Below, in pieces: positions 13,461 through 39,313 of a stretch of DNA of 64,000 nt. The DNA comes from Alphaproteobacteria bacterium. GTDB taxonomy: Bacteria > Pseudomonadota > Alphaproteobacteria > JAOXRX01. Where the stretch lies: the NCBI GenBank assembly GCA_025800285.1, contig JAOXRX010000039.1, positions 10,006-74,005 on the forward strand, read 5' to 3'. Position 1 is the first letter of the stretch. Each line of letters opens with the position of its first letter. The notes beneath the pieces were generated by a model. It was not told the DNA's origin. It searched no databases and saw only the letters and a program-made list of their open reading frames with translations. The position numbers and the translations under genes are program-made.

Positions 13461-13820
13461 TTAATTTATGATAATACCAATGATATATCCTAGAGTAATT
13501 AGTACAAAATATAATATTCCTAATATAAAGCATGAAAATAATATTGAATATTTTTTAGCCAAAGAGTTTTTATAATTAAAAAACATGGGGATTATTCTTA
13601 TAAAAATTAAAGAATAGATTAGTGTAATTATTATTGTAAAAGTTAATAATATTCTATATTCATTTATAGAATCACATTTTAAACAATATGGATTAATATT
13701 AAATAAATTTAAATTCCAAAAAATAATTTGGCAAATAGATATAATAGCATATCCAACCCAACCCAATATGAATATTGCGTTGGGAATTAACTCACTCTGT
13801 ATTATGTTTTTTATTTTCAT
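13461..13820 (-). CDS. small 4-TM membrane protein, candidate immunity protein for the upstream toxin
   Basis: 119 aa, four hydrophobic helices, starts 4 nt after the stop of the Tlde1-like gene. Confidence 0.45.
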   Translation of the reverse strand: MKIKNIIQSELIPNAIFILGWVGYAIISICQIIFWNLNLFNINPYCLKCDSINEYRILLTFTIIITLIYSLIFIRIIPMFFNYKNSLAKKYSILFSCFILGILYFVLITLGYIIGIIIN

Positions 13821-13823
13821 GTT

Positions 13824-15482: not shown

Positions 15483-15536
15483 TTTTATAAATGGCGAACT
15501 CGACAGGATTCGAACCTGTGACCTACTGCTTAGAAG
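15483..15536 (-). repeat. direct repeat of the 3' 45 nt of tRNA-Arg plus 9 nt of flank (attR-like remnant)
   Basis: 54 nt identical to 19460-19513; truncated, so not a functional tRNA. Confidence 0.85.
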
Positions 15537-15837
15537 CAGAGACAGCTTTAAAGAAATAAATCAACTAAAACAAAGTCTTAGCTAGACACACAAATCCTTT
15601 CAAAGACACTTTCGTTTTATTAATTGTTGCTAATCATTGCTATTTGTTGCCTATTATTGTCCTCCAGATGCTACCCACTTTGCTACCCATTTTATATACG
15701 ACTAACTGTTATAAAAACAGTCAGTCACAGAAAATTAAAGAAACAAATATACATTAAACAACTCTTTTTAATGCTTAGTATATTTAATATTAAAAAAGAA
15801 GGGCTTTTAAAAGCCCTTCTAAAAACAATAATAAAAT

Positions 15838-16080
15838 CTATTTTTTTATTTTATCACTTTTTTCTCGGTTTGCTTCCCAATGAAGAGGTTGTAAATTTCT
15901 AATATTATTAGAACCACCTTTGGACTTAGGATGCTTATGATCCACTTCCCAACCATACTCACCTAAAGTTCCATATGAAGGTTTTCTAATTTTATTGCCG
16001 TTAGAATCTCTTCTCCAAACATCTGGGTTTTTTCCTCTTATAGGCTTACCTTTATCCCAAATATTGTCTATTTTAGACAT
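15838..16080 (-). CDS. small HNH endonuclease
   Basis: EVDHKHPKSKGGSNNIRNLQPLHWEAN, an HNH motif with conserved His/Asn. Confidence 0.65.
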   Translation of the reverse strand: MSKIDNIWDKGKPIRGKNPDVWRRDSNGNKIRKPSYGTLGEYGWEVDHKHPKSKGGSNNIRNLQPLHWEANREKSDKIKK

Positions 16081-16143
16081 AGTTAAGTTCCCTTTCTTGA
16101 AAATACTTAGTCTAATGGGCAGAATATAATTCTACCCATAGCT

Positions 16144-16392
16144 TTACATAACTCTTTTATAATTATAGATATCTCTTATATGGTTATGAAAAAATTTACC
16201 ATGAGATGATGCATTCATTAAATCTTTAAAAAGATTTTCAGACACACCATAATATTGGTAAACACTATTATTGTGAAAACCAACTTCAAGGATATTTCTA
16301 TCATAACCAATATCATTAATCATAGAAGATTTTACATACTTTCTAGTCATCATGTATCTCCATATTATTGAGCATTTTAACCACACACTCAA
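16144..16392 (-). CDS. KTSC domain-containing protein
   Basis: 82 aa; pattern YDRNILEVGFHNNSVYQYYGVSENLFKDLMNASSHGKFF typical of KTSC domains. Confidence 0.55.
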   Translation of the reverse strand: MSVWLKCSIIWRYMMTRKYVKSSMINDIGYDRNILEVGFHNNSVYQYYGVSENLFKDLMNASSHGKFFHNHIRDIYNYKRVM

Positions 16393-16604
16393 TTATTAAC
16401 TTGACAAGGGTGTATAAGCATGATACTATCAAGTTCTCTCGTCTCGATAGGTTAAACCTTATCATTCGAATTTGAAGTCGCCATGTTAGTAGCATGTCGG
16501 CTTCTTTTAATATTGAAACACAACAAATCTTTCAATATTATTTCTTTATATCACCTTTATATCATTAAGTCAACTATAAAACTATTTTTTTATTAACTGT
16601 TAAC

Positions 16605-16997
16605 CTAACTATTAAGATTAGAAACAACTTTACTGTTTCTTACTTTTTTACTTTCTAAATCTATTTCTATCCAACCCCTCTCATCTATTCTTGTGTCAAA
16701 ATAACTTGTTTTTTCAGGCATTATATTAAAACAATTAAAAAAACTTTTTGCTGCTATATTAGCTCCATAAGCCCCCTTTCTTATTTTAATAGCTCCCTCA
16801 GCTGTTTTATCATTTAACATTTCAATACCTATCTTTTTACATTCTCTATCATAATACAAAACAACATAAGAATAATTATCTATTAAATATTTCTTTCTAG
16901 AACCTTGGTTCAAACCTATATTTCCATTTGTATTTACCGAACACCTCGGAGAAAAACTACCTCCAACTTGTGTAAATTTTTGATAAGCCATAATCAA
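16605..16997 (-). CDS. hypothetical protein (130 aa)
   Basis: ORF co-oriented inside the islet between the methyltransferase and KTSC genes; no recognisable motif. Confidence 0.4.
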   Translation of the reverse strand: MIMAYQKFTQVGGSFSPRCSVNTNGNIGLNQGSRKKYLIDNYSYVVLYYDRECKKIGIEMLNDKTAEGAIKIRKGAYGANIAAKSFFNCFNIMPEKTSYFDTRIDERGWIEIDLESKKVRNSKVVSNLNS

Positions 16998-17097
16998 CCT
17001 CCTTGCAAAATAAAAGACTATAAAAATAGTTATATACTATTTTTATAGTCTTGTCAAGCAGTTTACATCACTTAATACACCCAGTTAATAAACCACA

Positions 17098-18351
17098 CTA
17101 AAACAACTCCCCTTGTTTATCTGTGATAATTTCTTCTTTTTCTATAATCACATCTTCTATATCAAACTTTTTATCTAACATAGCTATTAAACACCTACCT
17201 ATATGATATCCTAAATTAACAGGGACTGCATTGCCTATTTGTTTATATTGAGCACACATAGAACCTTTAAACTCCCAATAATCTGGAAATGTTTGTATTC
17301 TTGCATATTCTCTAACATTTAATGGTCTAGTTTCCTCGGGATGACATCTTTCAGTTTGTTTCTGAGCTGGAGAACAAGTTAAAGTTAAACTAGGTTCATC
17401 CCATGACAACCTTCTAGCCATTCCTGTTCTTCCCCCCGTATGATAAAAACTTTTTCCCATATATTCTTTTTGAACTTCTTCAGGCAAATCTCTCCAACAC
17501 CCTCCTGCAGGAACTTGTTTTAAAACTTTATATTTCTTCTCGGGATATTTTTGTCCTTCAGACTTAGGACAATCTTTTAAAGCTTCCCTCATAGAAATTG
17601 TATAATCTTTTTCTTTTGGAAATATAAAAGGTATATTTAAGTCTTCTCTTATAACTATTATTATCAACCTTTCCCTTTTTTGAGGAACATCTAAATATTG
17701 AGATCTTAATACTTTATAATGAACTTTGTATCCCAATTCCCTTAATGCATTACACATTGTTTTTAATGTTTTACCATTATCATGTCTTAAAAGACCTTTA
17801 ACATTCTCTCCAACCGCAATTTTAGGATTAGTTTCTTTGATACATCTTGCAAATTCAAAAAACAAAGTTCCTCTTGTATCTTCAAACCCCATACTTTTAC
17901 CAGCATAACTAAATGTTTGACAAGGGAATCCTGCTTGCACTATATCAACTTTATTTCTATATTCTTTAAAATCAAGATTTCTAACATCTTCATGAACTAT
18001 GTTAGCATTAGGAAAATTAAATCTTAATGTTTCAACCGCACTTTTATCTATTTCATTTAATAATAAATGATTTAAGCCTGCATTTTCAAATCCTAAAGAA
18101 GTTCCTCCCGCTCCTGCAAAAAGTTCTATTATATTATAGTCTGTTTTTATATTACTTTTTAAAATTTGAAAATTATTATCATTAGAAACTCCATTTAATT
18201 TAGAATTTAATCTTTGCACTTCCTCCAAATCAAAAACTCTATAATTTTTCTCATCTCTTTGAGATTTTATAAGACCTTTTTTATCCCATCTTCTAATTGT
18301 ATCTACAGAGACTTCTAATTCTTCACTTACCTGATGAACTGTTAAATTCAT
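17098..18351 (-). CDS. DNA (cytosine-5)-methyltransferase with an N-terminal MerR-type HTH (SsoII/Eco47II-like architecture)
   Basis: motif I ELFAGAGGTSLGF, motif IV GFPCQTFSYAGK, motif VI VGENVKGLL; N-terminal 45 aa form an HTH (VSVDTIRRWDKKGLI). Confidence 0.85.
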   Translation of the reverse strand: MNLTVHQVSEELEVSVDTIRRWDKKGLIKSQRDEKNYRVFDLEEVQRLNSKLNGVSNDNNFQILKSNIKTDYNIIELFAGAGGTSLGFENAGLNHLLLNEIDKSAVETLRFNFPNANIVHEDVRNLDFKEYRNKVDIVQAGFPCQTFSYAGKSMGFEDTRGTLFFEFARCIKETNPKIAVGENVKGLLRHDNGKTLKTMCNALRELGYKVHYKVLRSQYLDVPQKRERLIIIVIREDLNIPFIFPKEKDYTISMREALKDCPKSEGQKYPEKKYKVLKQVPAGGCWRDLPEEVQKEYMGKSFYHTGGRTGMARRLSWDEPSLTLTCSPAQKQTERCHPEETRPLNVREYARIQTFPDYWEFKGSMCAQYKQIGNAVPVNLGYHIGRCLIAMLDKKFDIEDVIIEKEEIITDKQGELF

Positions 18352-18448
18352 TATTTCAACTCCTTTAAAAAATAAAATTCATTACTATAAATTATATATA
18401 GCAATACCCATTGCATAATGCAAGGGTTATTTTATATTTTTATAAATT

Positions 18449-19171
18449 TTATTGAAATGCTCTATCAAAAAGCTCTTTAAACAAAGGGTCTTTAATGATT
18501 TTCTTTTTATCATTTTTAACTATATCAGATATTATATGAGGCAAAACATTGTATAAGTCATAGATAGCATTCTTATCTCCAGTTGCTATTTCATAAAAAG
18601 TAGCTCCATCAATTTCTCTAATATTTTTATTCTTAGGTCTTCTTTTCCCTGCTTTTCTATTATCAGATGGAGTAAATTCTTTATCAAATCTCTTTTTAGT
18701 TAATATGGCAACATAATAAGCAACATATCCTTCATATTTAGACTTAGTTAGAGATTTTAAATCATCATATATTGCAACTTTATGATTACCTTTTGTAGTG
18801 TTAAATTTATTTTTAATTTCAGCTATAATTTTTTTATCTTTATTTACTAAATCTGCCACTCCTCCAGTTTTTAAGTCTTTCCAACCAATTACTCTTCCTA
18901 GAATCTTTTGATGAAAATTGCCAATAGCATTCTGCAAACTTTTTTGGATTTGTCTTGATTTTTCAGTAGCTAACCATTCTTCTAAAGACATCTTATGAAA
19001 AGAAGCATCAAATAAAGCAGAAAAAGGATCTACAATATTAGAATGCAAATCTTTTTCTATATCTTTAGATTTAACTTCTAAAACATCAACTATCTCCTGA
19101 CATAATTCATATAAATCTTTTTCACTAATCCATTTAAGTTTTTTCATAAATAACCACCTTAATTTAAACAT
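18449..19171 (-). CDS. putative type II restriction endonuclease (PD-(D/E)xK), partner of the adjacent methyltransferase
   Basis: GGVADLV ... IIAEIKNK gives a D...EIK nuclease core; immediately upstream of the methyltransferase in the same orientation; gene sizes (240/417 aa) resemble Eco47II/Sau96I-type systems. Confidence 0.5.
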   Translation of the reverse strand: MFKLRWLFMKKLKWISEKDLYELCQEIVDVLEVKSKDIEKDLHSNIVDPFSALFDASFHKMSLEEWLATEKSRQIQKSLQNAIGNFHQKILGRVIGWKDLKTGGVADLVNKDKKIIAEIKNKFNTTKGNHKVAIYDDLKSLTKSKYEGYVAYYVAILTKKRFDKEFTPSDNRKAGKRRPKNKNIREIDGATFYEIATGDKNAIYDLYNVLPHIISDIVKNDKKKIIKDPLFKELFDRAFQ

Positions 19172-19468
19172 ACTTATGTGTTTATCACTATATATTTAAA
19201 AAATCAAGTTTTTTAATTGCACCAATTTTGCACTATGACTGACTGATAGTTTTTCAGATAACCTGCAACAGCTAACACATTAAAATATAACAATATTATT
19301 GTAACATACTGCCATAATAAATTATATTTTTGAAAAAAACATCGTTGAAAGCTACTGTCACAAAGAGTTTGCAAGTTTGCTACCCACCTATAAAATCACT
19401 ATTTTTTAAACTTAAATTTAAACAAATAAAAAACCCGTCAAAGCTAGTGCTGACGGGGTTTTATAAAT

Positions 19469-19545
19469 GGCGAACTCGACAGGATTCGAACCTGTGACCT
19501 ACTGCTTAGAAGGCAGTTGCTCTATCCAGCTGAGCTACGAGTCCT
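19469..19545 (-). tRNA. tRNA-Arg (anticodon TCT)
   Basis: 77 nt cloverleaf folded by hand; anticodon loop cttctaa; CCA encoded; followed by a terminator hairpin. Confidence 0.85.
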
Positions 19546-19566
19546 CTTGCCGTTATTAGTTCAAAT

Positions 19567-19644
19567 GGTCGGGATAGCAGGATTCGAACCTACGACCCCT
19601 TGTACCCAAAACAAGTGCGCTAGCCAGACTGCGCCATATCCCGA
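19567..19644 (-). tRNA. tRNA-Pro (anticodon TGG)
   Basis: 78 nt cloverleaf; anticodon loop tttgggt; T-loop ttcgaat; CCA encoded. Confidence 0.8.
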
Positions 19645-19774
19645 TTGAACTGAGCATTTTATACACTCTTTTTTAAAAAAAATCAAGTCTTTTTTTATTT
19701 TTTTTAAAAAATATTTAAATTAACCATTTATTAACATAAAAAAATATATTCATTGATTATGTGTTAATAAATAG

Positions 19775-20491
19775 TTAATTAATTCCTTTATACATTTCCA
19801 TTAATGCTTTTTTTCTAGCTTGTAATTTAACAGGAGCTTTTTTCTCTTCCAGACTTACCTCATCATGACCCTGATTTTTATCTGAGAATTTATCTCTTAT
19901 ATACATCTCTGCTTTATATATATTACTATCTATAAAGTCAACTATATCTCTACTAGTCTCTCTAGGGCCATACATTAAAAAAGCCAACCCAGCCCCTAAA
20001 GAAGTTGTTGTAATAGATGTAAACCTTAAAGTCCTTCTAACACCCTCTTTGGCAAGCTCTATTTTACGAAGCTTTTTACCTCTTACCATATAATCTTCAG
20101 ACAATTTATCTTTTGATGTAACTTGAGCTGCAAAATCATGCAACTCTATATTTTTAACATTAGGATCCTTAACAGCAGATATAATTGCTTGATAACCACC
20201 TAAAATACTTCTATAGTAGCACTCTTTATTTCTTTTGTGTTTATAATACCTTCTTAGCACTATTTTCTTTGGTTTTAATAATGCTTTACCCAAAATAGAT
20301 TTTTTTCTATATTTAGATAAAAAATTAGCATATTTACCATGCCATTTCGTAGCAATTTCATTAGTATAAGCATATAAATAAAGATACTTCTCATCTATAG
20401 TACCATCAAATTTAGGTTTTAATCTTTTTCTAAAAAATAAATTAAGAGAACGAAAGCCTCTCCATGTTTTACCTATTACTTTACCTATCAT
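19775..20491 (-). CDS. hypothetical basic protein (238 aa)
   Basis: ORF only; K/R-rich; no family recognised. Confidence 0.4.
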   Translation of the reverse strand: MIGKVIGKTWRGFRSLNLFFRKRLKPKFDGTIDEKYLYLYAYTNEIATKWHGKYANFLSKYRKKSILGKALLKPKKIVLRRYYKHKRNKECYYRSILGGYQAIISAVKDPNVKNIELHDFAAQVTSKDKLSEDYMVRGKKLRKIELAKEGVRRTLRFTSITTTSLGAGLAFLMYGPRETSRDIVDFIDSNIYKAEMYIRDKFSDKNQGHDEVSLEEKKAPVKLQARKKALMEMYKGIN

Positions 20492-20652
20492 AAATCATCC
20501 TCTTAATATTGTTGAACCAAGTACTTTACATATCAAATATTATCATATATATTCTTTGAATGCAATATATTTATAATAATTATTCAATAAAATAAGAAAA
20601 AGCTTGACATAGTTATTTAAAAGATAGATAATGAAGTTACAGAACAAATATT

Positions 20653-21078
20653 TTGGGAGAAGATATTATGGATTATGTACAAAGAGACTCAAGAGAGGTT
20701 TGCAGTAGAGTTGAAGCCCACACTAATAACTTAGGAGGATTCCTGGATGCTTTTGCTGTACTTTACCTTGCATCTTTAAAAGCGATAGCTTATACAGCAA
20801 TATTTTATATTAAAAGGCCAAAAACTTTTTATCACCATGCGCTGTTTGCATCCACCTGTTTTTTAGGTTCACAATTTGCATCTAGTGGAGCGACAGATTT
20901 ATTGGCTGATAAATTTATAGAATACAAAAGATCTAAGTATGTTAAAAGCTGTTTAAAAACACCAGAAAACACAAACAAAAAAGATATTATAAAAAAATTT
21001 AGAGAAACAGTAAAAAAAGAAAATGCTTCAATAACAACAAAAAAACAAAGACCTACAAATTTAACAGCAAGCATTTAA
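20653..21078 (+). CDS. hypothetical protein (141 aa)
   Basis: ORF only; one hydrophobic segment; basic C-terminus. Confidence 0.35.
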   Translation: MGEDIMDYVQRDSREVCSRVEAHTNNLGGFLDAFAVLYLASLKAIAYTAIFYIKRPKTFYHHALFASTCFLGSQFASSGATDLLADKFIEYKRSKYVKSCLKTPENTNKKDIIKKFRETVKKENASITTKKQRPTNLTASI

Positions 21079-21162
21079 TATAATTAACATTACTCTATAG
21101 CAAAAAAAGAAGCTTTATATACATAAAAAGCTTCTTTTTTTTTATGACAAAACACACTTCAA

Positions 21163-22419
21163 TTAATCATTAGAAATATTTTTAAAAATATTTAAAACCC
21201 CCTTGACTCTACCATCATTAATTCTAGGTCTAGAGTCAATATTATTATCAACAGATGCAATATATTTAGGAATTACATTTACAATACTACTTTTTAATTT
21301 GTCTAAACCGCCCCACTTATCATACTTACTAATATTCACCCCTGAATAACCAAGACTTACATATAAATTATTTTCCCCATTAGTTTCTTTTATAAATAAA
21401 GAAGAGCTTTTAACATTAGACCTCTTATTATAAGAATTATACATAACAACATTATCTATAACAGGAAGACCTCTAGTATCATTGTATAAATTCAAAGTTT
21501 CCTTTAAGAAAAATGGATAAAGATCTTTTGGATTTACAACACTCAATGCTTCATCAATATCATCTATAGCCTTAAAATATTTTTCATTAAATGGATCGTA
21601 TAATTCTAAATTAATCATATTAATATTAGCTAACATCTCTTTACTTTGCCTTGAATCTATAGAACTTTTTTTAACCAATATAGAAAAGTCTTTCCACATA
21701 GGACTTTCAAAATAAGATTTCAAAAACCCCCTACCATTATCATTACGATCAGACTGGAAAGCATCTAAGGGACTAACTTTTACCTCCTCAAAATATATAA
21801 TTAATGTTTTATCTTTAAGATTTGATACAATCCTATTTAAACCAGACACAGCATCATTTACTTCTTTCTTTGATAACGCATCCATTTCAGTTTTTGAAAC
21901 GGTTTCCATATACTCTTCATAATTAAAAAATACTTTTGGCAAATTAGTTTTATTTTTTATACCAATCCCTGTTGTTACTAACCAGCCTGAAAGAGCCCCT
22001 CCCAAAACCAAACAAGTTGTATTTTTTAACCAATTCTTAACACTATTTAAAGCTTTGTCCCCATCTTTTCTATCACCAAGCATTTTAGAGTATATAGAAT
22101 TTCTATGCTTTTTGAATCTTTTCAAAAAGATTCTCAAAGAATTACTTCTGTCTTTCCCCTGTTCTAAATCCTTAATTAAAATATTCTCTATACAACTATT
22201 GGTTTTTCTGACATGATCACAAGTATCTTTAAAACAATCAAAAGAAATCTGATTACCGCACTTAAAAACATCTTCAATATTATAAAGATTAACTATATCC
22301 TCTGTTTTTAAGACCTCCGCCTTGTTTAAAGTTTTGTTTACAGATTGCACTTTAAAGTTAGAAATCGACATATTACCCCCTTTAAAAATCATTTTTTTAC
22401 TTTTATAAGTATAACACAC
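21163..22419 (-). CDS. hypothetical protein (418 aa) with one predicted TM helix
   Basis: ORF only; sits next to the large membrane protein; no family recognised. Confidence 0.45.
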   Translation of the reverse strand: MCYTYKSKKMIFKGGNMSISNFKVQSVNKTLNKAEVLKTEDIVNLYNIEDVFKCGNQISFDCFKDTCDHVRKTNSCIENILIKDLEQGKDRSNSLRIFLKRFKKHRNSIYSKMLGDRKDGDKALNSVKNWLKNTTCLVLGGALSGWLVTTGIGIKNKTNLPKVFFNYEEYMETVSKTEMDALSKKEVNDAVSGLNRIVSNLKDKTLIIYFEEVKVSPLDAFQSDRNDNGRGFLKSYFESPMWKDFSILVKKSSIDSRQSKEMLANINMINLELYDPFNEKYFKAIDDIDEALSVVNPKDLYPFFLKETLNLYNDTRGLPVIDNVVMYNSYNKRSNVKSSSLFIKETNGENNLYVSLGYSGVNISKYDKWGGLDKLKSSIVNVIPKYIASVDNNIDSRPRINDGRVKGVLNIFKNISND

Positions 22420-22528
22420 GGAAAAACTAATTTCAAGCGCAAATTAAAATAATAAAAAAAACCTTGCAAATTAAAATACATAAGTGCTATGATTTAAAAA
22501 AATAATATTTTCAGGAGAATAATTACAA

Positions 22529-25500
22529 ATGCTATCAAGTAAGAAAAAGACAAGATTTACTAAAAAGAAAATATCTAAAAAAATATTTATGCCAGAGTTT
22601 AACCGAAGCTTTTTACCTATAAAAATATCTATAGACTCTTTTGTTAGATTAATAGCAGGGATTTTCTCTCATGCGGGTTTATTAGACGAGGAAGATGATT
22701 TATTTAACACAAACCAATTATTAACATTTTCTGATTTTGGAGAAATGATTTTTGTTTCAGCAAAAAATATTAACTGGAGGAGTAAGAAATCAATACCACA
22801 AATTTGCTTATGGTTATCTTCAATTGCCTTAGTTATTTTTGTTTTATCAACACTACTTATCTTACTGTTTTCTTTAGCTACAGGAACTGCTAATGCAGCA
22901 TTAGCAATGGCTCAAGAAAACACAGGGGAGGATGTTAGCTCTTTATTTACATTAACTGAAGAGGTTGCTAAACATGAACATGGAACAACATGGTTAAACT
23001 GGATGTTTAATTTAGCTGGAGAATATAAACCTGCTGTGTTTGGTGAGGGAGGAACTGCTGCCAAACCAGGTATTGCCTTAGGATTTCAATCTATGCTTAC
23101 ATATTATAGTTCTACTTGTTTAATATTAGGCTCTATAATGGTTTCTTATTTATTTGTTGACAATATTGTTGACACAGCATCAACAGGTAAATTCATGGGG
23201 CAAGGCGATGAAGTATGGGCATATCCTAGAATACTAATAGCTATGTGTTTATTAGTACCTCTACCTAATGGCTCTGGTTTAAATATAGGTCAAAATCTTA
23301 TTATATCAATTTCTAAAGCGGGGTCAATTTTTGCAACAAATACATGGTTAGCTTTTCTAAAAAACTTAGGTGGCGAAGAAGGTAATGATTTAATATCTCC
23401 TGAAAGCTTTGATTTAGATAGTTTATCAAAAAATATGTTTGATTCATTTGTTTGTTATTGGGGAACTGCTATAGGTAATAAACTTCAAATTACTGACAAT
23501 AAAGATGGTATACCTCCTCATAAAACAAATGAGATAAAAAAAGAAAAAAGTGAATTATCAAAAGAAATACAATCCTTAAATGGTAAAATTGGCGGCGACT
23601 GTGAAATAGTTCCTTATAATAATGGGAAAATATCATCTTATTGGTATAAAGGAGATTGGAATGATTATACAAAAGAAGCTAGAAAAGAAGAATGTGAAGA
23701 TGATTTTTCGGATCCTAATGATTTCAGAATTACAGAACTTAAAGATATAATAAAGAAGGCAGACAACATTGGGTCAAAAGAATTAATGTTAGAACAAATG
23801 TATGGAGGACTAGAAAACCCAACTTCGATTAAGATTACAAAAGCTTCAAAAGCAGATTCTTTATCTTATGACTTTAATCTTGGTTCAGGTAGCAATGCTA
23901 TTACAATGGCTGGAGCTTGTGGTTCTTATGGACCTGCATTTTTCCAACAAGAATTTGAAGAAAAAGATGCAACTAGAGATTGCATATCAGAGAATCCTCA
24001 TGACTTAAACAACTTAATAACTTGTACGGAAGCAAAAATGCAAGCTAATGTAAAAAAAGGATTTTTAGCAGCTTTAAACAAAGAAAATGTTTTTGGATTT
24101 ATATCTGACACTTCTGAAGAAGCTGCGACATCACAATTTCAAATACCTAGTGTCCCTAAAGGAGGTATTGATGCTTATGTTGTAAACAAATCTGTAAAAT
24201 TAATTTCTGAGAAAAATTTTAAAAATGAAAAGTATAAAAAAGCCATAAAAGCAGCAAAAATAACTCCCCCTACACCAAACAGTTTATCAAGTTATGCTTA
24301 TGATTTTGTCCTTGCATCTTTATACTCAGATAAAAGTGGTAAAAATTTTATACCAAAAGGAATTGAACCTCTTAATTATAAAAACTTTGAAGACTCTTTA
24401 GATCTTATTAAAGATAATACTATATCTCTTCAGTCAGAAGAATATGGAAAACGCTTTAGTGAAAATATGGCTCCATACTTTAAAATAGCCAACGAATCTT
24501 TTAGAGATTTAAATTCTCATCTATTTGGTAATGCCAAAGAAAACAAAAAACCTGCAGAAACCGATATAGCTAATCAGATGCAAAAAGGATGGATAGCAGC
24601 TGGGGCTTTTTATTCTCTATTATCTCAAATAAACGGATTAGGTATAAAAGCAACAAGTGCAAGCTATGCTTACTCTTCCCCTATCTCATCTTTTACAGGT
24701 AGTCGTTCTATAAAAATAGATACATATTCATCTGATAAGATGACTGGATTCATACCTTATCTTGACTATATATTAACAAAAAAAGATCTTATTATTGGCA
24801 ATATAGAGAAAAAAACAACAGGAATAAGCTCAACAGATGAAAGCTCCAGCATGGGATCAAATGTTGCCATGTTAGCTGACATAATGAATACTGCTACTGG
24901 TTTAGCAGGAGCTAGTATTACAAATATAAATGGCGCTAATCCCTTCGCAGACTTAGTTAACCTTGGGCATTTATTAATAAATACAGCAACCTATACTAAA
25001 ATTTTAACTACCATGAAAGCTGAAACATATAAATCTATAGGTAACCTTCTTGCTAAAATTGGTGGAGCAATACCATATGGAGCTGGTATTGGCTCAGTAT
25101 TAGCATCTAAAATACCTAGCTATAAAGGGGAAATCATAAAGCAATTGGCTATACCTTTAAACATATTTCAAGGTATGATATTTAGTTTTGGTATAACTCT
25201 AGCCTATTATTTACCTTTGGTTCCTTTTATAAAGTTTATAATGGGAGGTATAGGATGGTTCGCTGCTGTCTTCCAAGCAGTAATTGGAACTCCTTTACTT
25301 TTATTAGGACATATAACTGTAAAAAAAGGTAGCATGATACTTGGACCAGACAGAGGTAAATACATGATGATTCTTGAAATATTCTTAAGGCCTGTTTTAA
25401 TGGTATTTGGCATGATAGGATCAATGCTACTACTATCTGTTGCAACATATATATTTAATGACTTATATAACTTTGCTTGGGGTGTTAGAAGCATGAATAG

Positions 25501-26068
25501 TGTTTGGGGAGGGTCAATACTATCTTTTGCCTCATATTTTAAAGGTCTAGCATATATAAGTATATATGTAACTACAATATACACTATAGCTACAAACTGC
25601 TTCAAACTTATAGATGATGTACCAGGTAAAGTCATAAGTTGGATGGGTGGCGGAGCCGGATATTCATTGAGCGGTGCTGAAGATGCTGTAGAACAAGGCG
25701 CTGGAAGTGCTGGTAAGTTCATAGAAAAAAGTATTGATGCATCAAGACAAAAATCATTAGATGATGAACAAACTAATAAGAAAAAGAATATTGCAAGAGA
25801 TGACAGAATTAAAGATACTATTGTAAAACATGGATCCGAAAAAGGAAATATGTTAGCCGATATGGAAGAAGGGAAATACGATGCAAATAAAGGTGAGTAT
25901 GTTGACATGTCAGATCAAGAGAAAAAAGAAGCTAAACAAAGGCTTGAAGATCATAGATCTGGTGGCGACCCTTATGGTATTAGAGCTAAAGAAAACGCTT
26001 CTACTTCCTCAACTGGGTTGAATCAGGACGGTAATATGAATATTGAGCCTCCTAAAAAAGACTCTTAA
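22529..26068 (+). CDS. large polytopic inner-membrane protein, possibly T4SS-associated (VirB6/TrbL-like or DotA/TraY-like architecture)
   Basis: 1179 aa; N-terminal TM helices, roughly 500 aa hydrophilic middle domain, C-terminal cluster of 5-6 TM helices (residues ~830-1010), charged tail; family call is by architecture only. Confidence 0.4.
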   Translation: MLSSKKKTRFTKKKISKKIFMPEFNRSFLPIKISIDSFVRLIAGIFSHAGLLDEEDDLFNTNQLLTFSDFGEMIFVSAKNINWRSKKSIPQICLWLSSIALVIFVLSTLLILLFSLATGTANAALAMAQENTGEDVSSLFTLTEEVAKHEHGTTWLNWMFNLAGEYKPAVFGEGGTAAKPGIALGFQSMLTYYSSTCLILGSIMVSYLFVDNIVDTASTGKFMGQGDEVWAYPRILIAMCLLVPLPNGSGLNIGQNLIISISKAGSIFATNTWLAFLKNLGGEEGNDLISPESFDLDSLSKNMFDSFVCYWGTAIGNKLQITDNKDGIPPHKTNEIKKEKSELSKEIQSLNGKIGGDCEIVPYNNGKISSYWYKGDWNDYTKEARKEECEDDFSDPNDFRITELKDIIKKADNIGSKELMLEQMYGGLENPTSIKITKASKADSLSYDFNLGSGSNAITMAGACGSYGPAFFQQEFEEKDATRDCISENPHDLNNLITCTEAKMQANVKKGFLAALNKENVFGFISDTSEEAATSQFQIPSVPKGGIDAYVVNKSVKLISEKNFKNEKYKKAIKAAKITPPTPNSLSSYAYDFVLASLYSDKSGKNFIPKGIEPLNYKNFEDSLDLIKDNTISLQSEEYGKRFSENMAPYFKIANESFRDLNSHLFGNAKENKKPAETDIANQMQKGWIAAGAFYSLLSQINGLGIKATSASYAYSSPISSFTGSRSIKIDTYSSDKMTGFIPYLDYILTKKDLIIGNIEKKTTGISSTDESSSMGSNVAMLADIMNTATGLAGASITNINGANPFADLVNLGHLLINTATYTKILTTMKAETYKSIGNLLAKIGGAIPYGAGIGSVLASKIPSYKGEIIKQLAIPLNIFQGMIFSFGITLAYYLPLVPFIKFIMGGIGWFAAVFQAVIGTPLLLLGHITVKKGSMILGPDRGKYMMILEIFLRPVLMVFGMIGSMLLLSVATYIFNDLYNFAWGVRSMNSVWGGSILSFASYFKGLAYISIYVTTIYTIATNCFKLIDDVPGKVISWMGGGAGYSLSGAEDAVEQGAGSAGKFIEKSIDASRQKSLDDEQTNKKKNIARDDRIKDTIVKHGSEKGNMLADMEEGKYDANKGEYVDMSDQEKKEAKQRLEDHRSGGDPYGIRAKENASTSSTGLNQDGNMNIEPPKKDS

Positions 26069-26087
26069 AGTTTGAAGCTAAAGCAAA

Positions 26088-26121
26088 AAAACAACCTCGT
26101 TAATTCAAGGTTGTTTTTTTA
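26088..26121 (+). terminator. rho-independent terminator after the 1179-aa membrane protein gene
   Basis: hairpin acaacct-cgttaattca-aggttgt followed by a T7 tract. Confidence 0.8.
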
Positions 26122-26250: not shown

Positions 26251-27375
26251 ATGAGCTTATCAAAAAAAAATATAAATATAAAAACAGGGATTTATATCCA
26301 CTACCCTTTTTGTTTATCAAAATGTTCTTATTGTGATTTTAACTCTATTGCAAACAAAAACATCGATCAAGACAAAGTTTTAGATGCATTCTTCAGAGAT
26401 TTAGACTATTACAAAAGTCTCGTCGGCGACAGACAAATATCTACAATTTATTTCGGAGGAGGAACCCCCTCTTTAATGTCTCCGCAAATGGTGAAAAAGA
26501 TAATTGATTATATAAAAGAACATTTCTCTTTATTAGACAATGCAGAAATAACTATAGAGGCAAATCCTCTTACGGCAGAGATAAAGAAATTTAAAGCATT
26601 TAAAACCGCTGGAATAAATAGAATCTCTATAGGAGCTCAATCTTTCTCTCAAAAAGGCTTAAAAGCTTTAGGAAGAACTCATAGTGTAAAACAAACCAAA
26701 AAAGCTTTAAAAGTTGCTAAAAAAGTATTTAACCGAAGCTCTTTTGATTTAATATATGGCTGGAAGGGTCAAACTCTTGCAGATTGGAAAAAGGATTTAA
26801 AAACAGCTCTAAAATATCATAATGGGCACATATCTATGTATCAACTAACAATATATGAAGGAACTGCTCTATATAAAAATGGAGAAAAGGAAATAGATGA
26901 AGATACATCCCTACTCTTTCAAGAAACCGCAAAATGCATTTTATCAAAACAAGGAATAAATCAATATGAGATTTCAAATTATTCTAAAACAAGCGAAGAA
27001 TCTCGACACAATTTACTATATTGGCACTATGATGATTATATTGGCATAGGAGCTGGAGCTAGTGGCAGATTAACTATAAATGGAAAAAAGAAAGCTTTTA
27101 TAAATGAACCTAACATTAAAAATTGGCTGAAAAAGAACTCCCCAGATATAGAAACAATAAATGATAAAGAGAAAGCTTATGAATATTTAATTATGGGATT
27201 GCGATTGAACAAAGGTATTTGTTTGAAAGATTTTCAAGCGAAAACTAGCATCGATATAAAAAAAATGATTGCTGATAAAAATTTAAATGATTTTTTAAAA
27301 ATAAATAAAGGTTACCTTTTTGCAACAAAAAAAGGCAGAGACTGTTTAAACCTTTTACTACAGAAGTTATTTTAA
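26251..27375 (+). CDS. hemW: radical SAM heme chaperone HemW (coproporphyrinogen III oxidase-like)
   Basis: YIHYPFCLSKCSYCDF radical-SAM Cys cluster; HemW/HemN-like length and layout. Confidence 0.85.
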   Translation: MSLSKKNINIKTGIYIHYPFCLSKCSYCDFNSIANKNIDQDKVLDAFFRDLDYYKSLVGDRQISTIYFGGGTPSLMSPQMVKKIIDYIKEHFSLLDNAEITIEANPLTAEIKKFKAFKTAGINRISIGAQSFSQKGLKALGRTHSVKQTKKALKVAKKVFNRSSFDLIYGWKGQTLADWKKDLKTALKYHNGHISMYQLTIYEGTALYKNGEKEIDEDTSLLFQETAKCILSKQGINQYEISNYSKTSEESRHNLLYWHYDDYIGIGAGASGRLTINGKKKAFINEPNIKNWLKKNSPDIETINDKEKAYEYLIMGLRLNKGICLKDFQAKTSIDIKKMIADKNLNDFLKINKGYLFATKKGRDCLNLLLQKLF

Positions 27376-27439
27376 AAATAAGTTTACTTTTAAACTATAA
27401 AATGCTAATCTTTCTCCATTATAAAGAAAGAGGGAAACC

Positions 27440-28240
27440 ATGAAAAAGTTATTAATTACAACATTAGCTATATTAATATCTGCTAGTGCAAATGCGGCAA
27501 CAAATAAAGGCAAAGTAATAGCGACAGTTAATGGAGAAAACATCTATGAATATTCTGTTGAAGCTGTTTACAAGACAATCCCTGAGGATAATATAAAATC
27601 TCTTGGTGGTAAAGAAAAGGTTACTAATGCCATAATAAATCAGTTAGTTTCAGCTGAAGCTCTTAAACAAGAGGCTCTAAAATCAGGAATTGAAAAAAAC
27701 GAATCGTTCAAAGAGATTCTTAAAATTGAAAGAGAAAGATTAATTCAAGAAGAGTTCTTAAGACAAGAAGTAGAAAAAGCAATTACAGAAAAACAAATCA
27801 AAGAAGTTTATGATGAAGCAGTTAAAGAGTTCTCTCCTGAAAAAGAATACTTAGTATTTAACATACTTAGCAAAACAGAAGAAGATGCTAAAAATATTAT
27901 AAAAGAGCTAGAATCTGGTGCAGATTTTTCAGAATTAGCAATTAAGAAATCTCAAACATCAAATGTTAAAGAAACAAAGGGATCTCTAGGATATATAAAG
28001 TCTAGCGATTTAATTGATAACATTGCGAAAGAAATAAAGTCTATAAAAGAAGGAGAGTTTTCTGTAGCTCCTGTAAAATCTCCATTTGGATGGAATGTTT
28101 TTCATGTTAAAGAAAGCAGAATGGAAAAAGCTCCAACATTTGAGGAGTCTAAGTCAACAATAAGACAATCTCTATACAAAGAAAAAATGCTAGAGATAGT
28201 TAAAGAGCTTAAAAATAAAGCAGAAGTTATATATAAATAA
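27440..28240 (+). CDS. periplasmic parvulin-type peptidyl-prolyl cis-trans isomerase (SurA/PpiC family)
   Basis: signal peptide; C-terminal parvulin domain GSLGYIKSSDL ... FGWNVFHV. Confidence 0.75.
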   Translation: MKKLLITTLAILISASANAATNKGKVIATVNGENIYEYSVEAVYKTIPEDNIKSLGGKEKVTNAIINQLVSAEALKQEALKSGIEKNESFKEILKIERERLIQEEFLRQEVEKAITEKQIKEVYDEAVKEFSPEKEYLVFNILSKTEEDAKNIIKELESGADFSELAIKKSQTSNVKETKGSLGYIKSSDLIDNIAKEIKSIKEGEFSVAPVKSPFGWNVFHVKESRMEKAPTFEESKSTIRQSLYKEKMLEIVKELKNKAEVIYK

Positions 28241-28306
28241 TATTGACTTTTACAGTAATTAGATAGATAATGAATTCTATATAAAAAAGAAAAGGAAGAA
28301 ATTATT

Positions 28307-29200
28307 ATGCCAAAAAGATGTGGTTTTGTAGCTTTGATCGGTAGCCCTAATGCGGGTAAATCAACACTATTAAATAGATATGTTGGTTCTAAGATATCTA
28401 TTGTAAGCCAAAAGGTTCAAACAACTAGAAGTAAAATTACAGGAATTACAATACATAATAAAACTCAGTTAATATTTATTGATACCCCTGGTATTTTTGC
28501 TCCTAAAAAAAGATTAGATAAAGCTATGGTTTCTGCAGCATGGCAAGGAGCTGACAATGCAGATTGCATCTTATTTTTAGTAGATGCTTCGTCAGGAATT
28601 AATGATGATGTTATTGCTATCGTTGAGAATCTAAAAAAATGTGATAAACAAGCTATTTTGGTTTTGAATAAAGTTGATAAAATTGATCCAAAAATATTAT
28701 TAGGGCTAGCTCAAAATCTATCAGCATATGGTGTATTTTCTGATGTATTTATGATTTCTGCAAAAACAGGTAGTGGTACAGATGATTTACTAAATTTATT
28801 AGCTGAAAAAATGCCAAAAGGAACTTGGTTATATCCTGATGATCACTTATCAGATATGCCATTAAGATTCCTTACATCTGAGATAACAAGAGAAAAGATA
28901 CTAGAATCGGTTCATGATGAAATCCCTTACAAACTTACTGTAGAAACAGAGAAATGGGAAGAAATGAAAAATGGATCTGTAAAGATACACCAGATTATAT
29001 TTGTTCAAACAAATAGCCATAAAGCAATACTACTTGGTGAAGGTGGTAAAAAGATAAAGCATATTGGTATAAAATCAAGACAAGATATTTCAAACCTAAT
29101 TAGCAAAGATGTTCACTTGAAACTATTTGTTAAGGTTAGAAAAAAGTGGCAAGACAACCCTGAAAGATACAGGAATCTTGGTTTAGAGTTTCATAGTTAA
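28307..29200 (+). CDS. era: GTPase Era
   Basis: GSPNAGKSTLLN, DTPG, NKVD motifs and a C-terminal KH domain. Confidence 0.95.
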   Translation: MPKRCGFVALIGSPNAGKSTLLNRYVGSKISIVSQKVQTTRSKITGITIHNKTQLIFIDTPGIFAPKKRLDKAMVSAAWQGADNADCILFLVDASSGINDDVIAIVENLKKCDKQAILVLNKVDKIDPKILLGLAQNLSAYGVFSDVFMISAKTGSGTDDLLNLLAEKMPKGTWLYPDDHLSDMPLRFLTSEITREKILESVHDEIPYKLTVETEKWEEMKNGSVKIHQIIFVQTNSHKAILLGEGGKKIKHIGIKSRQDISNLISKDVHLKLFVKVRKKWQDNPERYRNLGLEFHS

Positions 29201-39260: not shown

Positions 39261-39313
39261 AATAATAAATAAAGCTTGCATTTATATCAAAACTTAATTA
39301 TTTATTAACAATT

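What the first reader, a model, noticed from the sequence alone, without database searches (positions are those of the whole stretch)
19775..26068. Large polytopic membrane protein with T4SS-like architecture next to three lineage-specific hypotheticals, adjacent to the tRNA pair
The 1179-aa protein has a basic cytoplasmic N-terminus, 2-3 N-terminal TM helices, a ~500-residue hydrophilic (probably periplasmic) domain, a tight cluster of 5-6 TM helices near residues 830-1010, and a charged C-terminal tail. This layout is shared by extended VirB6/TrbL proteins of Rickettsiales and by DotA/TraY of type IVB systems. It is solitary, since no other T4SS genes are in the window. It is preceded by three unrecognisable ORFs (238, 141 and 418 aa) lying between it and tRNA-Pro/tRNA-Arg, which fits an island-borne effector/translocon set.
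Basis: inference. Interest (0 to 1): 0.55.

Follow-up and report, generated by a model that had tools for sequence, protein, structure and literature searches.

The report
Stand-alone chromosomal DotA-family membrane protein
The large membrane protein is a distant relative of DotA/TraY, the central channel protein of type IVB secretion machines, but it sits alone at an old chromosomal site rather than on a tRNA-linked island, beside three fast-changing small membrane-protein genes.

Summary
The 1179-aa protein belongs to the DotA/TraY family: NCBIfam TIGR04346 scores 244 bits against a cutoff of 100, and four collinear matches hit solved Legionella DotA (PDB 9NGY). It gives no TrbL/VirB6 Pfam hit. 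NCBI already names it "DotA/TraY family protein".

No other type IV secretion gene lies in about 82 kb of contiguous sequence. The island idea fails. Relatives at 37-40% identity keep the downstream order dotA-hemW-ppiC-era, and two also keep tRNA-Arg and tRNA-Pro upstream. Codon usage and GC look native. The real tRNA-linked island is a 4-kb Eco47II restriction-modification cassette on the other side of tRNA-Arg, bounded by a perfect 54-nt repeat.

The three upstream ORFs look coding but are near-orphans. A sister strain carries a second, very divergent copy of the trio in tandem, so it behaves as a variable cassette.

The nearest relatives found in genome assemblies are three tandem DotA-like paralogs in Micavibrio-like alphaproteobacteria, also among housekeeping genes. 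A role independent of a type IV system is my preferred reading. It remains unproven, because no whole genome could be scanned.

The parts
22529..26068 (+). 1179-aa DotA/TraY-family polytopic membrane protein. Inferred topology: a conserved basic cytoplasmic N-terminal extension of about 95 aa; a signal-anchor-like hydrophobic segment at 99-117; TM segments at about 196-214 and 235-253; a large hydrophilic domain with 5 conserved Cys; a C-terminal bundle of hydrophobic helices (873 to about 1039); and a charged tail.
   Evidence: TIGR04346 244.5 bits (cutoff 100); NF033886 172 bits (cutoff 500, not reached). PDB 9ngy DotA E=1.9e-16 with four collinear stretches. Hydropathy. Conserved columns, including Cys 309, 389, 464, 485 and 499. 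N-terminal extension shared with the Micavibrio-like paralogs and absent from plasmid TraY. NCBI name 'DotA/TraY family protein', MCV6599305.1.
22420..22528 (.). 109-bp divergent intergenic region between the 418-aa ORF and dotA. It holds an AGGAG ribosome-binding site 9 nt before the dotA ATG and promoter-like hexamers on both strands.
   Evidence: Sequence. Consensus matches at 22464-22493 (+) and 22436-22408 (-) (such matches are no more frequent than in shuffles). Window 22445-22566 is repeated at 91% identity in front of the second cassette in a sister strain.
26084..26121 (.). 16-bp-stem hairpin flanked by A and T runs, 16 nt after the dotA stop codon. It is a probable bidirectional terminator, so dotA looks monocistronic.
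   Evidence: Terminator-like site.
21163..22419 (-). 418-aa ORF (more likely 409 or 402 aa, starting at 22392 or 22371). Basic (pI 9.2), with one hydrophobic segment at 136-152. First gene of the strain-variable three-gene cassette.
   Evidence: Coding-like codon usage. Annotated in NCBI as hypothetical protein OIF36_02340. A full HMMER scan of 1.84 billion representatives finds only itself and P0006 (24% identity, E=1.3e-4). No Pfam, NCBIfam, PADLOC or PDB family; the only PHROGs match is a stray weak one to a family of unknown function. hhalign against TraW is negative. The AF2 model is unusable, pLDDT 33.
20653..21078 (+). 141-aa ORF (136 aa from the ATG at 20668). Basic, with one or two hydrophobic segments (30-46, 63-79). 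Second gene of the cassette, on the opposite strand.
   Evidence: Coding-like. Called as 136 aa in independent assemblies. No family hits. The positional counterpart in the sister strain (163 aa) shows no detectable similarity.
19775..20491 (-). 238-aa ORF. Very basic (pI 10.0), with a weak hydrophobic segment at 157-173. Third gene of the cassette.
   Evidence: Coding-like. No family hits. 25% identical (E=1e-9 in a small database) to the 230-aa third gene of the second cassette in the sister strain, and the last ~40 nt are nearly identical.
19468..19643 (-). tRNA-Arg(tct) at 19468-19544 and tRNA-Pro(tgg) at 19566-19643. This is a conserved landmark upstream of dotA in two of the three relatives whose upstream flank could be read.
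   Evidence: ARAGORN and Rfam. The same pair in the same orientation lies upstream of dotA in L001 and L078.
15483..19512 (.). The real tRNA-linked island (not part of the DotA locus). Perfect 54-nt direct repeats at 15483-15536 and 19459-19512 (the 3' part of tRNA-Arg plus 9 nt) bracket about 3.9 kb. The cargo is an Eco47II-type endonuclease, a MerR-HTH C5 methylase, a 130-aa ORF and an HNH ORF. No integrase was seen.
   Evidence: Repeat family D1. Pfam RE_Eco47II 1.7e-56 and DNA_methylase 1.9e-89. ORFs. HNH hits. The sister strain carries other genes at this site.
26251..29200 (+). hemW (26251-27375), a PpiC-type rotamase (27440-28240) and era (28307-29200). This housekeeping block follows dotA in every close relative whose downstream flank could be read.
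   Evidence: Precomputed Pfam hits on the gene calls of the window strain and relatives, and shared clusters. NCBI name HemW.

Best explanation
The 1179-aa gene encodes a divergent member of the DotA/TraY family. This family forms the central inner-membrane and periplasmic channel of type IVB secretion and IncI conjugation machines, and the published structure shows it is fold-related to VirB6.

Here it is a native, vertically inherited chromosomal gene. Downstream it is followed by hemW, a ppiC-type rotamase and era; upstream, in this strain and two relatives, by tRNA-Arg and tRNA-Pro. It has its own ribosome-binding site and terminator. No other type IV secretion gene lies within about 30 kb to its left or 48 kb to its right.

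It belongs to a chromosomal alphaproteobacterial clade that differs from plasmid TraY. The clade has an extra conserved cytoplasmic N-terminal domain of about 90 aa. In Micavibrio-like genomes it occurs as three tandem paralogs among housekeeping genes.

Inferred, not shown: like DotA, the protein oligomerises into an inner-membrane-anchored, periplasm-spanning channel or scaffold. In this lineage it works without a classical Dot/Icm machine, most plausibly in contact-dependent exchange with the cell the bacterium lives on.

The three upstream ORFs are not an island cargo. They form a rapidly diverging, strain-variable cassette of small basic single-pass membrane proteins that shares the divergent promoter region with dotA. 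Whether they are partners or cargo of the DotA-like protein, or merely occupy a recombination hot spot, is open.
For: Family membership: TIGR04346 scores 244.5 bits against a cutoff of 100. Four collinear matches to L. pneumophila DotA in PDB 9ngy cover the TMI/TMII region and the C-terminal hydrophobic helices. 3408 plasmid TraY genes match residues ~860-1100. NCBI names it a DotA/TraY family protein. The topology, with conserved periplasmic cysteines, parallels the published DotA architecture.

Native locus: synteny with L001 and L078 at 40% identity includes the tRNA pair. GC and codon usage are native. The real island lies on the other side of tRNA-Arg.

Solitary: every scanned ORF in the window is housekeeping or unrelated, and so are the flank extensions.

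Related clade: all 75 genomic loci kept from the genome-collection scan lie in alphaproteobacterial or Micavibrio-labelled MAGs apart from one contig labelled Patescibacteria. 50 of them have exactly three full-length tandem paralogs, each passing TIGR04346 in the one locus tested. Their recurrent neighbours are ABC-F, MlaC, MlaA, LptF/G, PepA and HolC. A rough neighbour-joining tree puts the window clade as sister to all three paralog groups, with plasmid TraY outside. The N-terminal extension is shared within the chromosomal clade only. [quoted passage not shown]

Cassette: a sister strain that is 99.5% identical over 3.5 kb carries a second trio of 400, 163 and 230 aa in tandem. It is preceded by a 91% copy of the dotA 5' end plus intergenic region, and its proteins are only 24-29% identical or unalignable. 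A further relative (L086) has no such genes upstream of dotA.
Against: Only about 82 kb of this genome was visible, and dot/icm and rvh genes are scattered in some bacteria. A type IVB machine encoded elsewhere is therefore not excluded. I could not confirm that the cultured Micavibrio strain described as lacking a T4SS carries the DotA-like triplet. No structural model could be obtained (pLDDT 33 for both predictions), so oligomeric state and fold are inferred from homology alone. No known VirB6 or DotA-family protein works without a VirB4-type ATPase (my own knowledge, not tested here). The functional link between the cassette and dotA rests only on adjacency and a shared, co-duplicated intergenic region.
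Confidence: 0.55

Rival explanations
1. The protein is the DotA subunit of a complete type IVB (Dot/Icm-like or IncI-like) secretion system. The other genes are dispersed elsewhere in the chromosome, so its function is the classical one: the central channel for effector or DNA transfer.
For: It is a bona fide DotA/TraY family member. DotA needs DotG and IcmX to assemble in Legionella (10.1101/2025.06.23.660953). Only about 82 kb of the genome could be inspected. The organism was assembled from a coral metagenome run and is AT-rich, which fits a host-associated lifestyle that often uses such systems.
Against: In the IncI plasmid examined, traY directly follows traW and traX, and an Acetobacter plasmid has a TraW-like gene two genes upstream of its DotA/TraY gene. 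From my own knowledge, dotA adjoins icmV/W/X in Legionella. Here, and in 75 related loci, no recognisable partner lies within 10 kb or more. The clade carries three paralogs, or one, at conserved housekeeping sites, and has an extra N-terminal domain not seen in plasmid TraY. The score falls far below the DotA equivalog threshold, 172 against 500. The Micavibrio genome paper found no T4SS.
Confidence: 0.3
2. One reading: a horizontally acquired island at tRNA-Pro/tRNA-Arg carrying a translocon (the large protein) and three effector-like genes.
For: The cluster adjoins two tRNA genes. The three ORFs are near-orphans and differ between strains.
Against: The same tRNA pair and the same downstream housekeeping genes flank dotA in relatives at 40% identity. 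GC and codon usage are native. The cluster is on the 5' side of the tRNAs. The repeat-bounded island with the restriction-modification system is on the 3' side. No integrase or att repeat brackets the dotA side.
Confidence: 0.04
3. A non-functional leftover of an ancient type IVB system or integrated conjugative element, retained by chance.
For: It stands alone with no recognisable partners.
Against: The 3.5-kb reading frame is intact and has the strongest coding signal of the four ORFs. There are long invariant blocks across three lineages at 40% identity, including the cytoplasmic N-terminus, the TM helices and five cysteines. The position is conserved. In the sister clade the gene has been kept in three copies across dozens of genomes.
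Confidence: 0.06
4. An extended VirB6/TrbL paralog of a type IVA (rvh-like) system, as in Rickettsiales.
For: The overall layout resembles extended VirB6 proteins. DotA's helices are structurally VirB6-like according to the published structure. There is a borderline Rfam match to a Rickettsia sRNA elsewhere in the window.
Against: No PF04610 hit at E<=1. The significant matches are all to DotA/TraY models, the DotA structure and plasmid TraY genes. The nearest relatives found in genome assemblies are Micavibrio-like, not Rickettsiales.
Confidence: 0.03

Closest known systems
Legionella pneumophila DotA (PDB 9NGY/9NH0; Dot/Icm type IVB secretion system)
   Same: Collinear sequence similarity over the first TM pair and the C-terminal hydrophobic helices (E=1.9e-16). 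The overall layout is the same: N-terminal hydrophobic segments, a large cysteine-bearing periplasmic domain, five or so hydrophobic helices and a C-terminal tail.
   Different: It scores 172 bits against the 500-bit equivalog cutoff. It has an extra cytoplasmic N-terminal domain of about 90 aa ahead of the signal-like segment. The periplasmic domain is not alignable apart from short stretches. No IcmX, IcmV, IcmW or DotB/C/D gene lies nearby. The gene sits in a housekeeping locus.
TraY of IncI1 conjugative plasmids and DotA/TraY proteins of MPF_I plasmids (for example Acetobacter pomorum pSH1)
   Same: Same NCBIfam family (TIGR04346). 3408 plasmid genes match residues ~860-1100 at 25-35% identity.
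   Different: Plasmid TraY is 722-790 aa, starts directly with a signal peptide and is preceded by traW and traX or a TraW-like gene. The window protein is chromosomal, 1179 aa, with no TraW- or TraX-like neighbour. It falls outside the plasmid sequences in a rough tree.
Tandem DotA/TraY-family triplets of Micavibrio-like alphaproteobacterial genomes (undescribed in the searched literature)
   Same: These are the nearest relatives found in genome assemblies, at 24-36% identity; closer relatives (37-40%) are known only from metagenome contigs. They pass the same family model, share the N-terminal cytoplasmic extension and lie in a chromosomal housekeeping context without type IV secretion genes within 10 kb.
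   Different: There are three (sometimes four) paralogs of about 880-1050 aa between an ABC-F gene and mlaC-mlaA-lptF-lptG. The window clade has a single 1170-1183-aa copy between tRNA-Pro and hemW. The window protein is equidistant from all three paralog groups.
VirB6/TrbL (PF04610) of type IVA systems, including extended Rickettsiales VirB6 paralogs
   Same: A polytopic inner-membrane protein with a hydrophobic helical bundle. The published DotA structure shows its TM and hydrophobic helices resemble VirB6.
   Different: No sequence-profile similarity. Fold similarity could not be tested here because the model failed.

Membership tests
DotA/TraY family (NCBIfam TIGR04346) | Whole-protein HMM score at or above the curated cutoff (100 bits) | tested here: met
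   244.5 bits, E=2.5e-72, best stretch 633-1040 on model positions 267-656 of 656. Relatives P0001 and P0002 and the three Micavibrio-like paralogs also pass.
DotA/TraY family (NCBIfam TIGR04346) | Collinear similarity to an experimentally solved DotA, including the N-terminal TM pair and the C-terminal hydrophobic helices | tested here: met
   PDB 9ngy DotA, E=1.9e-16. Stretches 188-279, 668-705, 858-983 and 1000-1072 map in order onto chain residues 59-149, 441-478, 713-840 and 909-973.
DotA/TraY family (NCBIfam TIGR04346) | Topology: N-terminal TM segments, a large periplasmic domain with disulfide-forming cysteines, a C-terminal cluster of hydrophobic helices | tested here: met
   Hydropathy profile and cysteine positions. 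Cys 309, 389, 464, 485 and 499 are invariant in the clade. Compared with the published domain scheme. This is a prediction only; no topology experiment exists.
DotA/TraY family (NCBIfam TIGR04346) | DotA/VirB6-like three-dimensional fold and pentameric assembly | tested here: inconclusive
   AlphaFold2 on a 5-sequence alignment gave mean pLDDT 33.1 and pTM 0.25, so no fold search was justified.
Type IVB secretion system protein DotA, equivalog (NCBIfam NF033886) | Score at or above the 500-bit equivalog cutoff (orthology with Legionella-type DotA) | tested here: not met
   172.3 bits; only the C-terminal 250 residues align.
Type IVB / MPF_I secretion or conjugation system (as a component) | Adjacent partner genes IcmX/TraW and IcmV/TraX | tested here: not met
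   The NCBIfam TraW and TraX models detect E. coli TraW and TraX and a remote Acetobacter TraW-like protein, but nothing in the three upstream ORFs at E<=1. There is no PDB hit to the IcmX chains of 9ngy. hhalign of the 418-aa family against TraW is negative. Structural similarity could not be tested.
Type IVB / MPF_I secretion or conjugation system (as a component) | Presence in the same genome of the core machine (DotB/TraJ, DotO/TraU and DotL/TrbC ATPases; DotC/D/H/G/F) | not testable with these tools
   None lies in the 64-kb window or in 17.6 kb of added flank. The rest of the genome could not be read.
TrbL/VirB6 (Pfam PF04610) | Profile match to PF04610 | tested here: not met
   At E<=1 the only Pfam match is a spurious Caveolin hit (13 bits); TrbL/VirB6 does not appear.
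tRNA-integrated genomic island | Location at the 3' end of a tRNA, flanking direct repeats of the tRNA end, foreign composition, absence from relatives | tested here: not met
   The dotA cluster lies 5' of the tRNAs, has no bracketing repeats and has native GC and codon usage. The dotA position is conserved in relatives. All of these features except foreign composition (GC about 0.28-0.30, like its surroundings) are met instead by the restriction-modification cassette at 15537-19458.

The most novel reading that the evidence does not exclude
DotA-like proteins of this alphaproteobacterial clade form a self-sufficient envelope conduit, or one that is at least independent of a Dot/Icm machine, and the clade uses it to connect to the cell it lives on. 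In this AT-rich bacterium, assembled from a coral metagenome, the protein is single-copy. In Micavibrio-like genomes (the cultured species is an epibiotic predator) it is triplicated. The adjacent hypervariable three-gene cassette, duplicated together with the dotA promoter region, would encode fast-evolving tip, adaptor or cargo proteins that play the role IcmX/VirB5 plays in classical systems. That would be an exaptation of the central type IV channel subunit outside any type IV secretion system.
Probability: 0.22. Interest if true: 0.8.

Novelty: new variant of a known kind. Interest (0 to 1): 0.42.

Why it matters
DotA and its fold-relative VirB6 have only recently been shown to form the central channel of type IV secretion machines. 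To my knowledge they have not been described working outside such a machine.

This clade is chromosomal and vertically inherited. It has an added cytoplasmic domain and no secretion-system neighbours in any locus examined. It is single-copy here and triplicated in the lineage that contains the epibiotic predator Micavibrio, whose feeding mechanism is not described in the contact-dependent predation review I consulted (PMC12428579).

If the machine really is absent, the clade offers a natural minimal system for asking what the channel subunit can do by itself. It also gives a candidate for how these cell-attached bacteria connect to prey or host.

If the rest of the machine turns up elsewhere in the genome, the finding is simply a divergent, already-annotated DotA gene and is ordinary.

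Tried and rejected
- Structure prediction of the DotA-like protein (5-sequence alignment, pLDDT 33.1) and of the 418-aa protein with its one relative (pLDDT 32.8). Both models are unusable, so no fold searches were run.
- Word-indexed homologue searches with the protein and then with its alignment returned the same four proteins. This prevented a deeper alignment for structure prediction.
- Metagenome scans: the single-protein scan found nothing. The clade-alignment scan found one short contig.
- Testing the three ORFs as divergent IcmX/TraW or IcmV/TraX found nothing: NCBIfam, PDB sequences and hhalign against a small TraW alignment.
- Testing positional orthology with the 307/300-aa and 211/213-aa genes that occupy the same place in L001 and L078. 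Those pairs are homologous to each other (E=3e-23 and 3e-10). They show no similarity to the window ORFs by blastp, tblastn or hhalign.
- Defence-system and phage-family searches for the cassette proteins found nothing in PADLOC and only one stray weak match (E=0.005) to a PHROGs family of unknown function.
- The toxin-immunity reading of the cassette was considered but has no supporting domain evidence.
- The IncI plasmid fetched as a reference for a full tra gene set turned out to lack traG-traU, so no local panel of type IVB reference proteins was built.
- Literature searches for DotA with Micavibrio, and for the DotA/TraY family name, found no papers.
- The Rickettsiales and Hepatincolaceae leads for organism identity were not supported by the DotA relatives and were dropped.

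Full report
**1.

The tRNA pair is also confirmed: tRNA-Arg(tct) at 19468-19544 and tRNA-Pro(tgg) at 19566-19643, both on the minus strand.

A hydropathy scan of the large protein reproduces the described layout:
- residues 1-90 are basic, with net charge +7;
- hydrophobic segments lie near 99-117, 196-214 and 235-253;
- residues 280-690 are hydrophilic and contain six cysteines, and the hydrophilic stretch continues to about residue 870;
- a hydrophobic cluster above threshold spans 873-969, with further predicted helices out to about 1039 (low-confidence model);
- the tail 1040-1179 is charged.

A codon-usage log-odds score, trained on clearly identified genes of the window, is positive only in the annotated frame for all four ORFs. 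The values are +0.36 to +0.48 bits per codon, which is in the range of known genes. The three small ORFs are therefore probably real genes. Independent gene calls agree, with slightly shorter starts: 409 or 402 aa for the 418-aa ORF and 136 aa for the 141-aa ORF.

**2. The large protein is a DotA/TraY-family protein.**

- Pfam gives no hit to TrbL/VirB6 or to anything else meaningful at E<=1.
- NCBIfam TIGR04346 (DotA/TraY family) scores 244.5 bits against a curated cutoff of 100. The Legionella-type DotA equivalog NF033886 scores only 172 bits against a cutoff of 500.
- Among solved structures, the only hit is L. pneumophila DotA (PDB 9ngy, E=1.9e-16). Four collinear stretches cover the first TM pair, a piece of the periplasmic domain and the C-terminal hydrophobic helices.
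- 3408 plasmids carry TraY genes matching residues ~860-1100 at 25-35% identity.
- The exact sequence is already in NCBI as MCV6599305.1, [quoted passage not shown].

The 2025 in-situ structure paper shows DotA as a pentamer. Together with an IcmX pentamer it forms the central protochannel of the Dot/Icm machine. The paper also shows that DotA's TM and hydrophobic helices resemble VirB6 (10.1101/2025.06.23.660953). For VirB6 it is right only at the level of published fold similarity.

**3. It is solitary in all the sequence I could see.**

Nearly every ORF of 100 aa or more in the window was scanned against Pfam or NCBIfam. They are housekeeping genes or unrelated accessory genes: gap, ctpA, mnmE, htpG, parE, lptD, rph-rdgB, serS, recN, bamD, tsaD and others. 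Other hits include a YjbH protein (39314-41269), a PARCEL-repeat protein and an IS element.

Extending the contig by exact-protein look-ups added more sequence with no type IV secretion gene:
- 7.6 kb on the left: yidC, yidD, rnpA, rpmH, sufE, rimM, rpsP and others;
- 10 kb on the right: a TolC-like gene, an M23 peptidase, ftsZ/A/Q, murB and murG.

The zone free of type IV secretion genes is therefore about 30 kb to the left and 48 kb to the right of the gene. The rest of the genome could not be read.

**4. It is not on an island.**

The two closest relatives (P0001 and P0002, about 40% identity, from JGI metagenomes) have the same downstream genes: hemW, a PpiC-type rotamase and era. They also have the same tRNA-Arg(tct)/tRNA-Pro(tgg) pair upstream, in the same orientation. 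A third relative (L086, 37% identity) has a different upstream neighbour, a uracil-DNA-glycosylase-like gene next to tRNA-Val, and no divergent gene at all. The GC content and codon usage of the cluster match the rest of the window.

A perfect 54-nt direct repeat occurs at 15483-15536 and 19459-19512. It consists of the 3' part of tRNA-Arg plus 9 nt. It brackets about 3.9 kb on the other side of the tRNAs. That segment carries an Eco47II-type endonuclease, a MerR-HTH C5 methylase, a 130-aa ORF and an HNH ORF. This is the tRNA-linked island. In a sister strain the same site holds different genes.

**5. The three upstream ORFs form a strain-variable cassette.**

None of them hits Pfam, NCBIfam or PADLOC, and the only PHROGs match is one stray weak hit of the 418-aa ORF to a family of unknown function.

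A full HMMER scan of 1.84 billion representative proteins with the 418-aa ORF found only its own NCBI entry (hypothetical protein OIF36_02340) and one remote relative, P0006 (400 aa, 24% identity, E=1.3e-4).

P0006 lies on a contig of NCBI assembly GCA_025210315.1. That contig is 99.5% identical to window 19705-23228. In that strain the window's trio is followed, before tRNA-Pro, by a second trio with the same strand pattern: 400 aa, 163 aa on the opposite strand, and 230 aa. Three details of this second trio stand out:
- It is preceded by a 91%-identical copy of window 22445-22566, which is the first 38 nt of dotA plus the intergenic region.
- It ends with the same last ~40 nt as the 238-aa gene.
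- Its proteins are only 24-29% identical to the window's (first and third genes) or unalignable (second gene).

All six proteins are basic (pI 9.2-10.0), and each has a hydrophobic segment at an equivalent position.

In L001 and L078 the same slot holds two genes with the same strand pattern, 300-307 aa (-) and 211-213 aa (+). These are homologous between those two loci but show no similarity to the window ORFs.

The slot between tRNA-Pro and dotA is therefore occupied by fast-turnover genes for membrane proteins (one hydrophobic segment each in most; the middle genes of both trios have two weaker ones). Conserved flanks allow duplication or exchange.

Their sizes (about 400 and 140 aa) recall TraW/IcmX and IcmV. 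In an IncI plasmid, traW (400 aa) and traX (194 aa) directly precede traY. No test supports homology: NCBIfam TraW and TraX models, the PDB IcmX chains and hhalign against TraW were all negative. The structural test failed for lack of a usable model.

**6. The wider family is chromosomal and alphaproteobacterial.**

A scan of one genome per species found 164 relatives. Of the best 75 loci, 74 are in MAGs labelled Alphaproteobacteria, Rhodospirillales, Pseudomonadota, Bdellovibrionales, Micavibrio or Pseudobdellovibrionaceae. The last is the NCBI family that holds Micavibrio. One contig is labelled Patescibacteria.

Fifty of the 75 loci have exactly three full-length DotA-like paralogs in tandem, of about 880-1050 aa. 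Most of the remaining loci lie on short or truncated contigs, and a few have four copies. All three paralogs in the one locus tested pass TIGR04346.

Their recurrent neighbours are housekeeping genes confirmed by Pfam, with no type IV secretion gene within 10 kb: an ABC-F ATPase upstream, then mlaC, mlaA, lptF, lptG, pepA, a lysine-aminomutase-like gene and holC downstream.

The window protein is equally distant from all three paralog groups. A rough neighbour-joining tree puts window+L001+L078 as sister to the whole Micavibrio-like set, with plasmid TraY outside.

The chromosomal clade shares an N-terminal extension of about 90 aa ahead of the signal-like hydrophobic segment. Plasmid TraY proteins lack it and start directly with the signal peptide. 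This extension is highly conserved within the window clade and is presumably cytoplasmic. That points to a cytoplasmic interaction that classical DotA/TraY does not have.

[quoted passage not shown] I could not verify that this strain carries the triplet. No paper in the searchable library links DotA to Micavibrio.

**7. How it most likely works.**

Shown:
- family membership;
- the predicted topology;
- a native, conserved, apparently monocistronic locus, with an AGGAG site 9 nt before the ATG and a 16-bp hairpin 16 nt after the stop codon;
- no partner genes nearby.

Inferred from the solved Legionella structure: the protein oligomerises into an inner-membrane-anchored assembly whose large disulfide-bonded domain projects across the periplasm.

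Inferred from context, at moderate confidence: in this clade the assembly does not depend on a classical Dot/Icm or IncI machine and has been recruited for another envelope function. The most plausible role is contact-dependent exchange with the prey or host cell. Two facts point that way. The Micavibrio-like relatives belong to a lineage whose cultured member is an epibiotic predator. The window's exact DotA sequence was assembled from a run used as a coral metagenome, and the window encodes a PARCEL-repeat surface protein.

The main rival, at about 0.3, is that the rest of a type IVB system is encoded elsewhere. A whole-genome profile scan would settle this in minutes, but I could not run one.

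**8. Verdict.**

The island and effector reading is refuted. The gene itself is already annotated in public databases.

What appears to be new is the context. This is a stand-alone, vertically inherited DotA-family clade with an added N-terminal domain. It is single-copy here, triplicated in Micavibrio-like genomes, and here sits next to a duplicating hypervariable cassette.

I rate it a new variant of a known kind with moderate interest. That rating depends on whether a type IV machine is really absent from these genomes.

Noticed in passing
window 15483-19512: A perfect 54-nt direct repeat (the 3' part of tRNA-Arg plus 9 nt) brackets a 3.9-kb island. The island carries an Eco47II-type restriction endonuclease, a C5 cytosine methylase with an N-terminal MerR-type HTH, a 130-aa orphan ORF and an 80-aa HNH endonuclease ORF. 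No integrase is visible. A sister strain (L083) has different genes at this site: a 474-aa protein, a 152-aa protein with a signal-peptide-like start, and a DUF6119 protein.
   Followed up: partly
L083 (NCBI GCA_025210315.1, JAOASA010000086.1) 3569-6388; L084: A sister strain holds a second, highly divergent copy of the three-gene cassette in tandem. It is preceded by a 91% copy of the dotA 5' end and intergenic region. Non-coding flanks near-identical while coding regions are only 24-29% identical at protein level suggests cassette exchange or gene conversion rather than simple duplication and drift.
   Followed up: partly
loci L003-L077 (for example L076 8396-16788, L008 7103-15248): Micavibrio-like alphaproteobacterial genomes carry three (sometimes four) tandem DotA/TraY-family paralogs. 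They sit at a conserved housekeeping site between an ABC-F ATPase gene and mlaC-mlaA-lptF-lptG, with no type IV secretion genes within 10 kb. No paper in the library mentions this.
   Followed up: partly
window 12703-14504: A 226-aa ORF with a Tlde1 / L,D-transpeptidase-like domain (a domain known from type VI effectors) lies next to a 119-aa orphan ORF and a MORN-repeat ORF. This is the lowest-GC stretch of the window (0.25-0.27). No type VI secretion genes are in the window.
   Followed up: no
window 7957-8261 (+): An Rfam match to Rickettsia sRNA47 (Rp_sR47) scores 61.1 bits against a gathering score of 60. It lies antisense inside the ctpA-like protease gene. It may reflect conserved coding sequence rather than an sRNA.
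   Followed up: no
window 37592-41269: A 651-aa YjbH-family protein (Pfam 'exopolysaccharide biosynthesis protein') is preceded by two ORFs without family hits (259 and 265 aa). Together they might form a yjbEFGH-like polysaccharide export cluster, but that reading is untested.
   Followed up: no
window 50389-51906; L001 1487-6193; L078 274-1374: A PARCEL-repeat surface protein (TIGR02167), of the kind known from Listeria and mycoplasma lipoproteins, is encoded in the window. Proteins with the related Pfam DUF285 family occur a few kb from dotA in both close relatives.
   Followed up: no
window 48674-50050: RNase PH and the RdgB/HAM1 NTP pyrophosphatase are fused in a single 458-aa ORF.
   Followed up: no
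window 56707-57699: An IS element transposase (rve-type integrase core domains) lies between serS and a rubrerythrin gene.
   Followed up: no
window 14568-15017 and 54030-54536: Two separate DUF488-family ORFs. The first lies just outside the left repeat of the restriction-modification island.
   Followed up: no
window 44379-44966: A 195-aa ORF between parE and lptD holds only a helicase C-terminal domain. It may be a gene fragment.
   Followed up: no
L017 (DATJGZ010000284.1): A contig labelled Patescibacteria group bacterium carries the Micavibrio-type DotA-like genes. This is probably a binning error.
   Followed up: no
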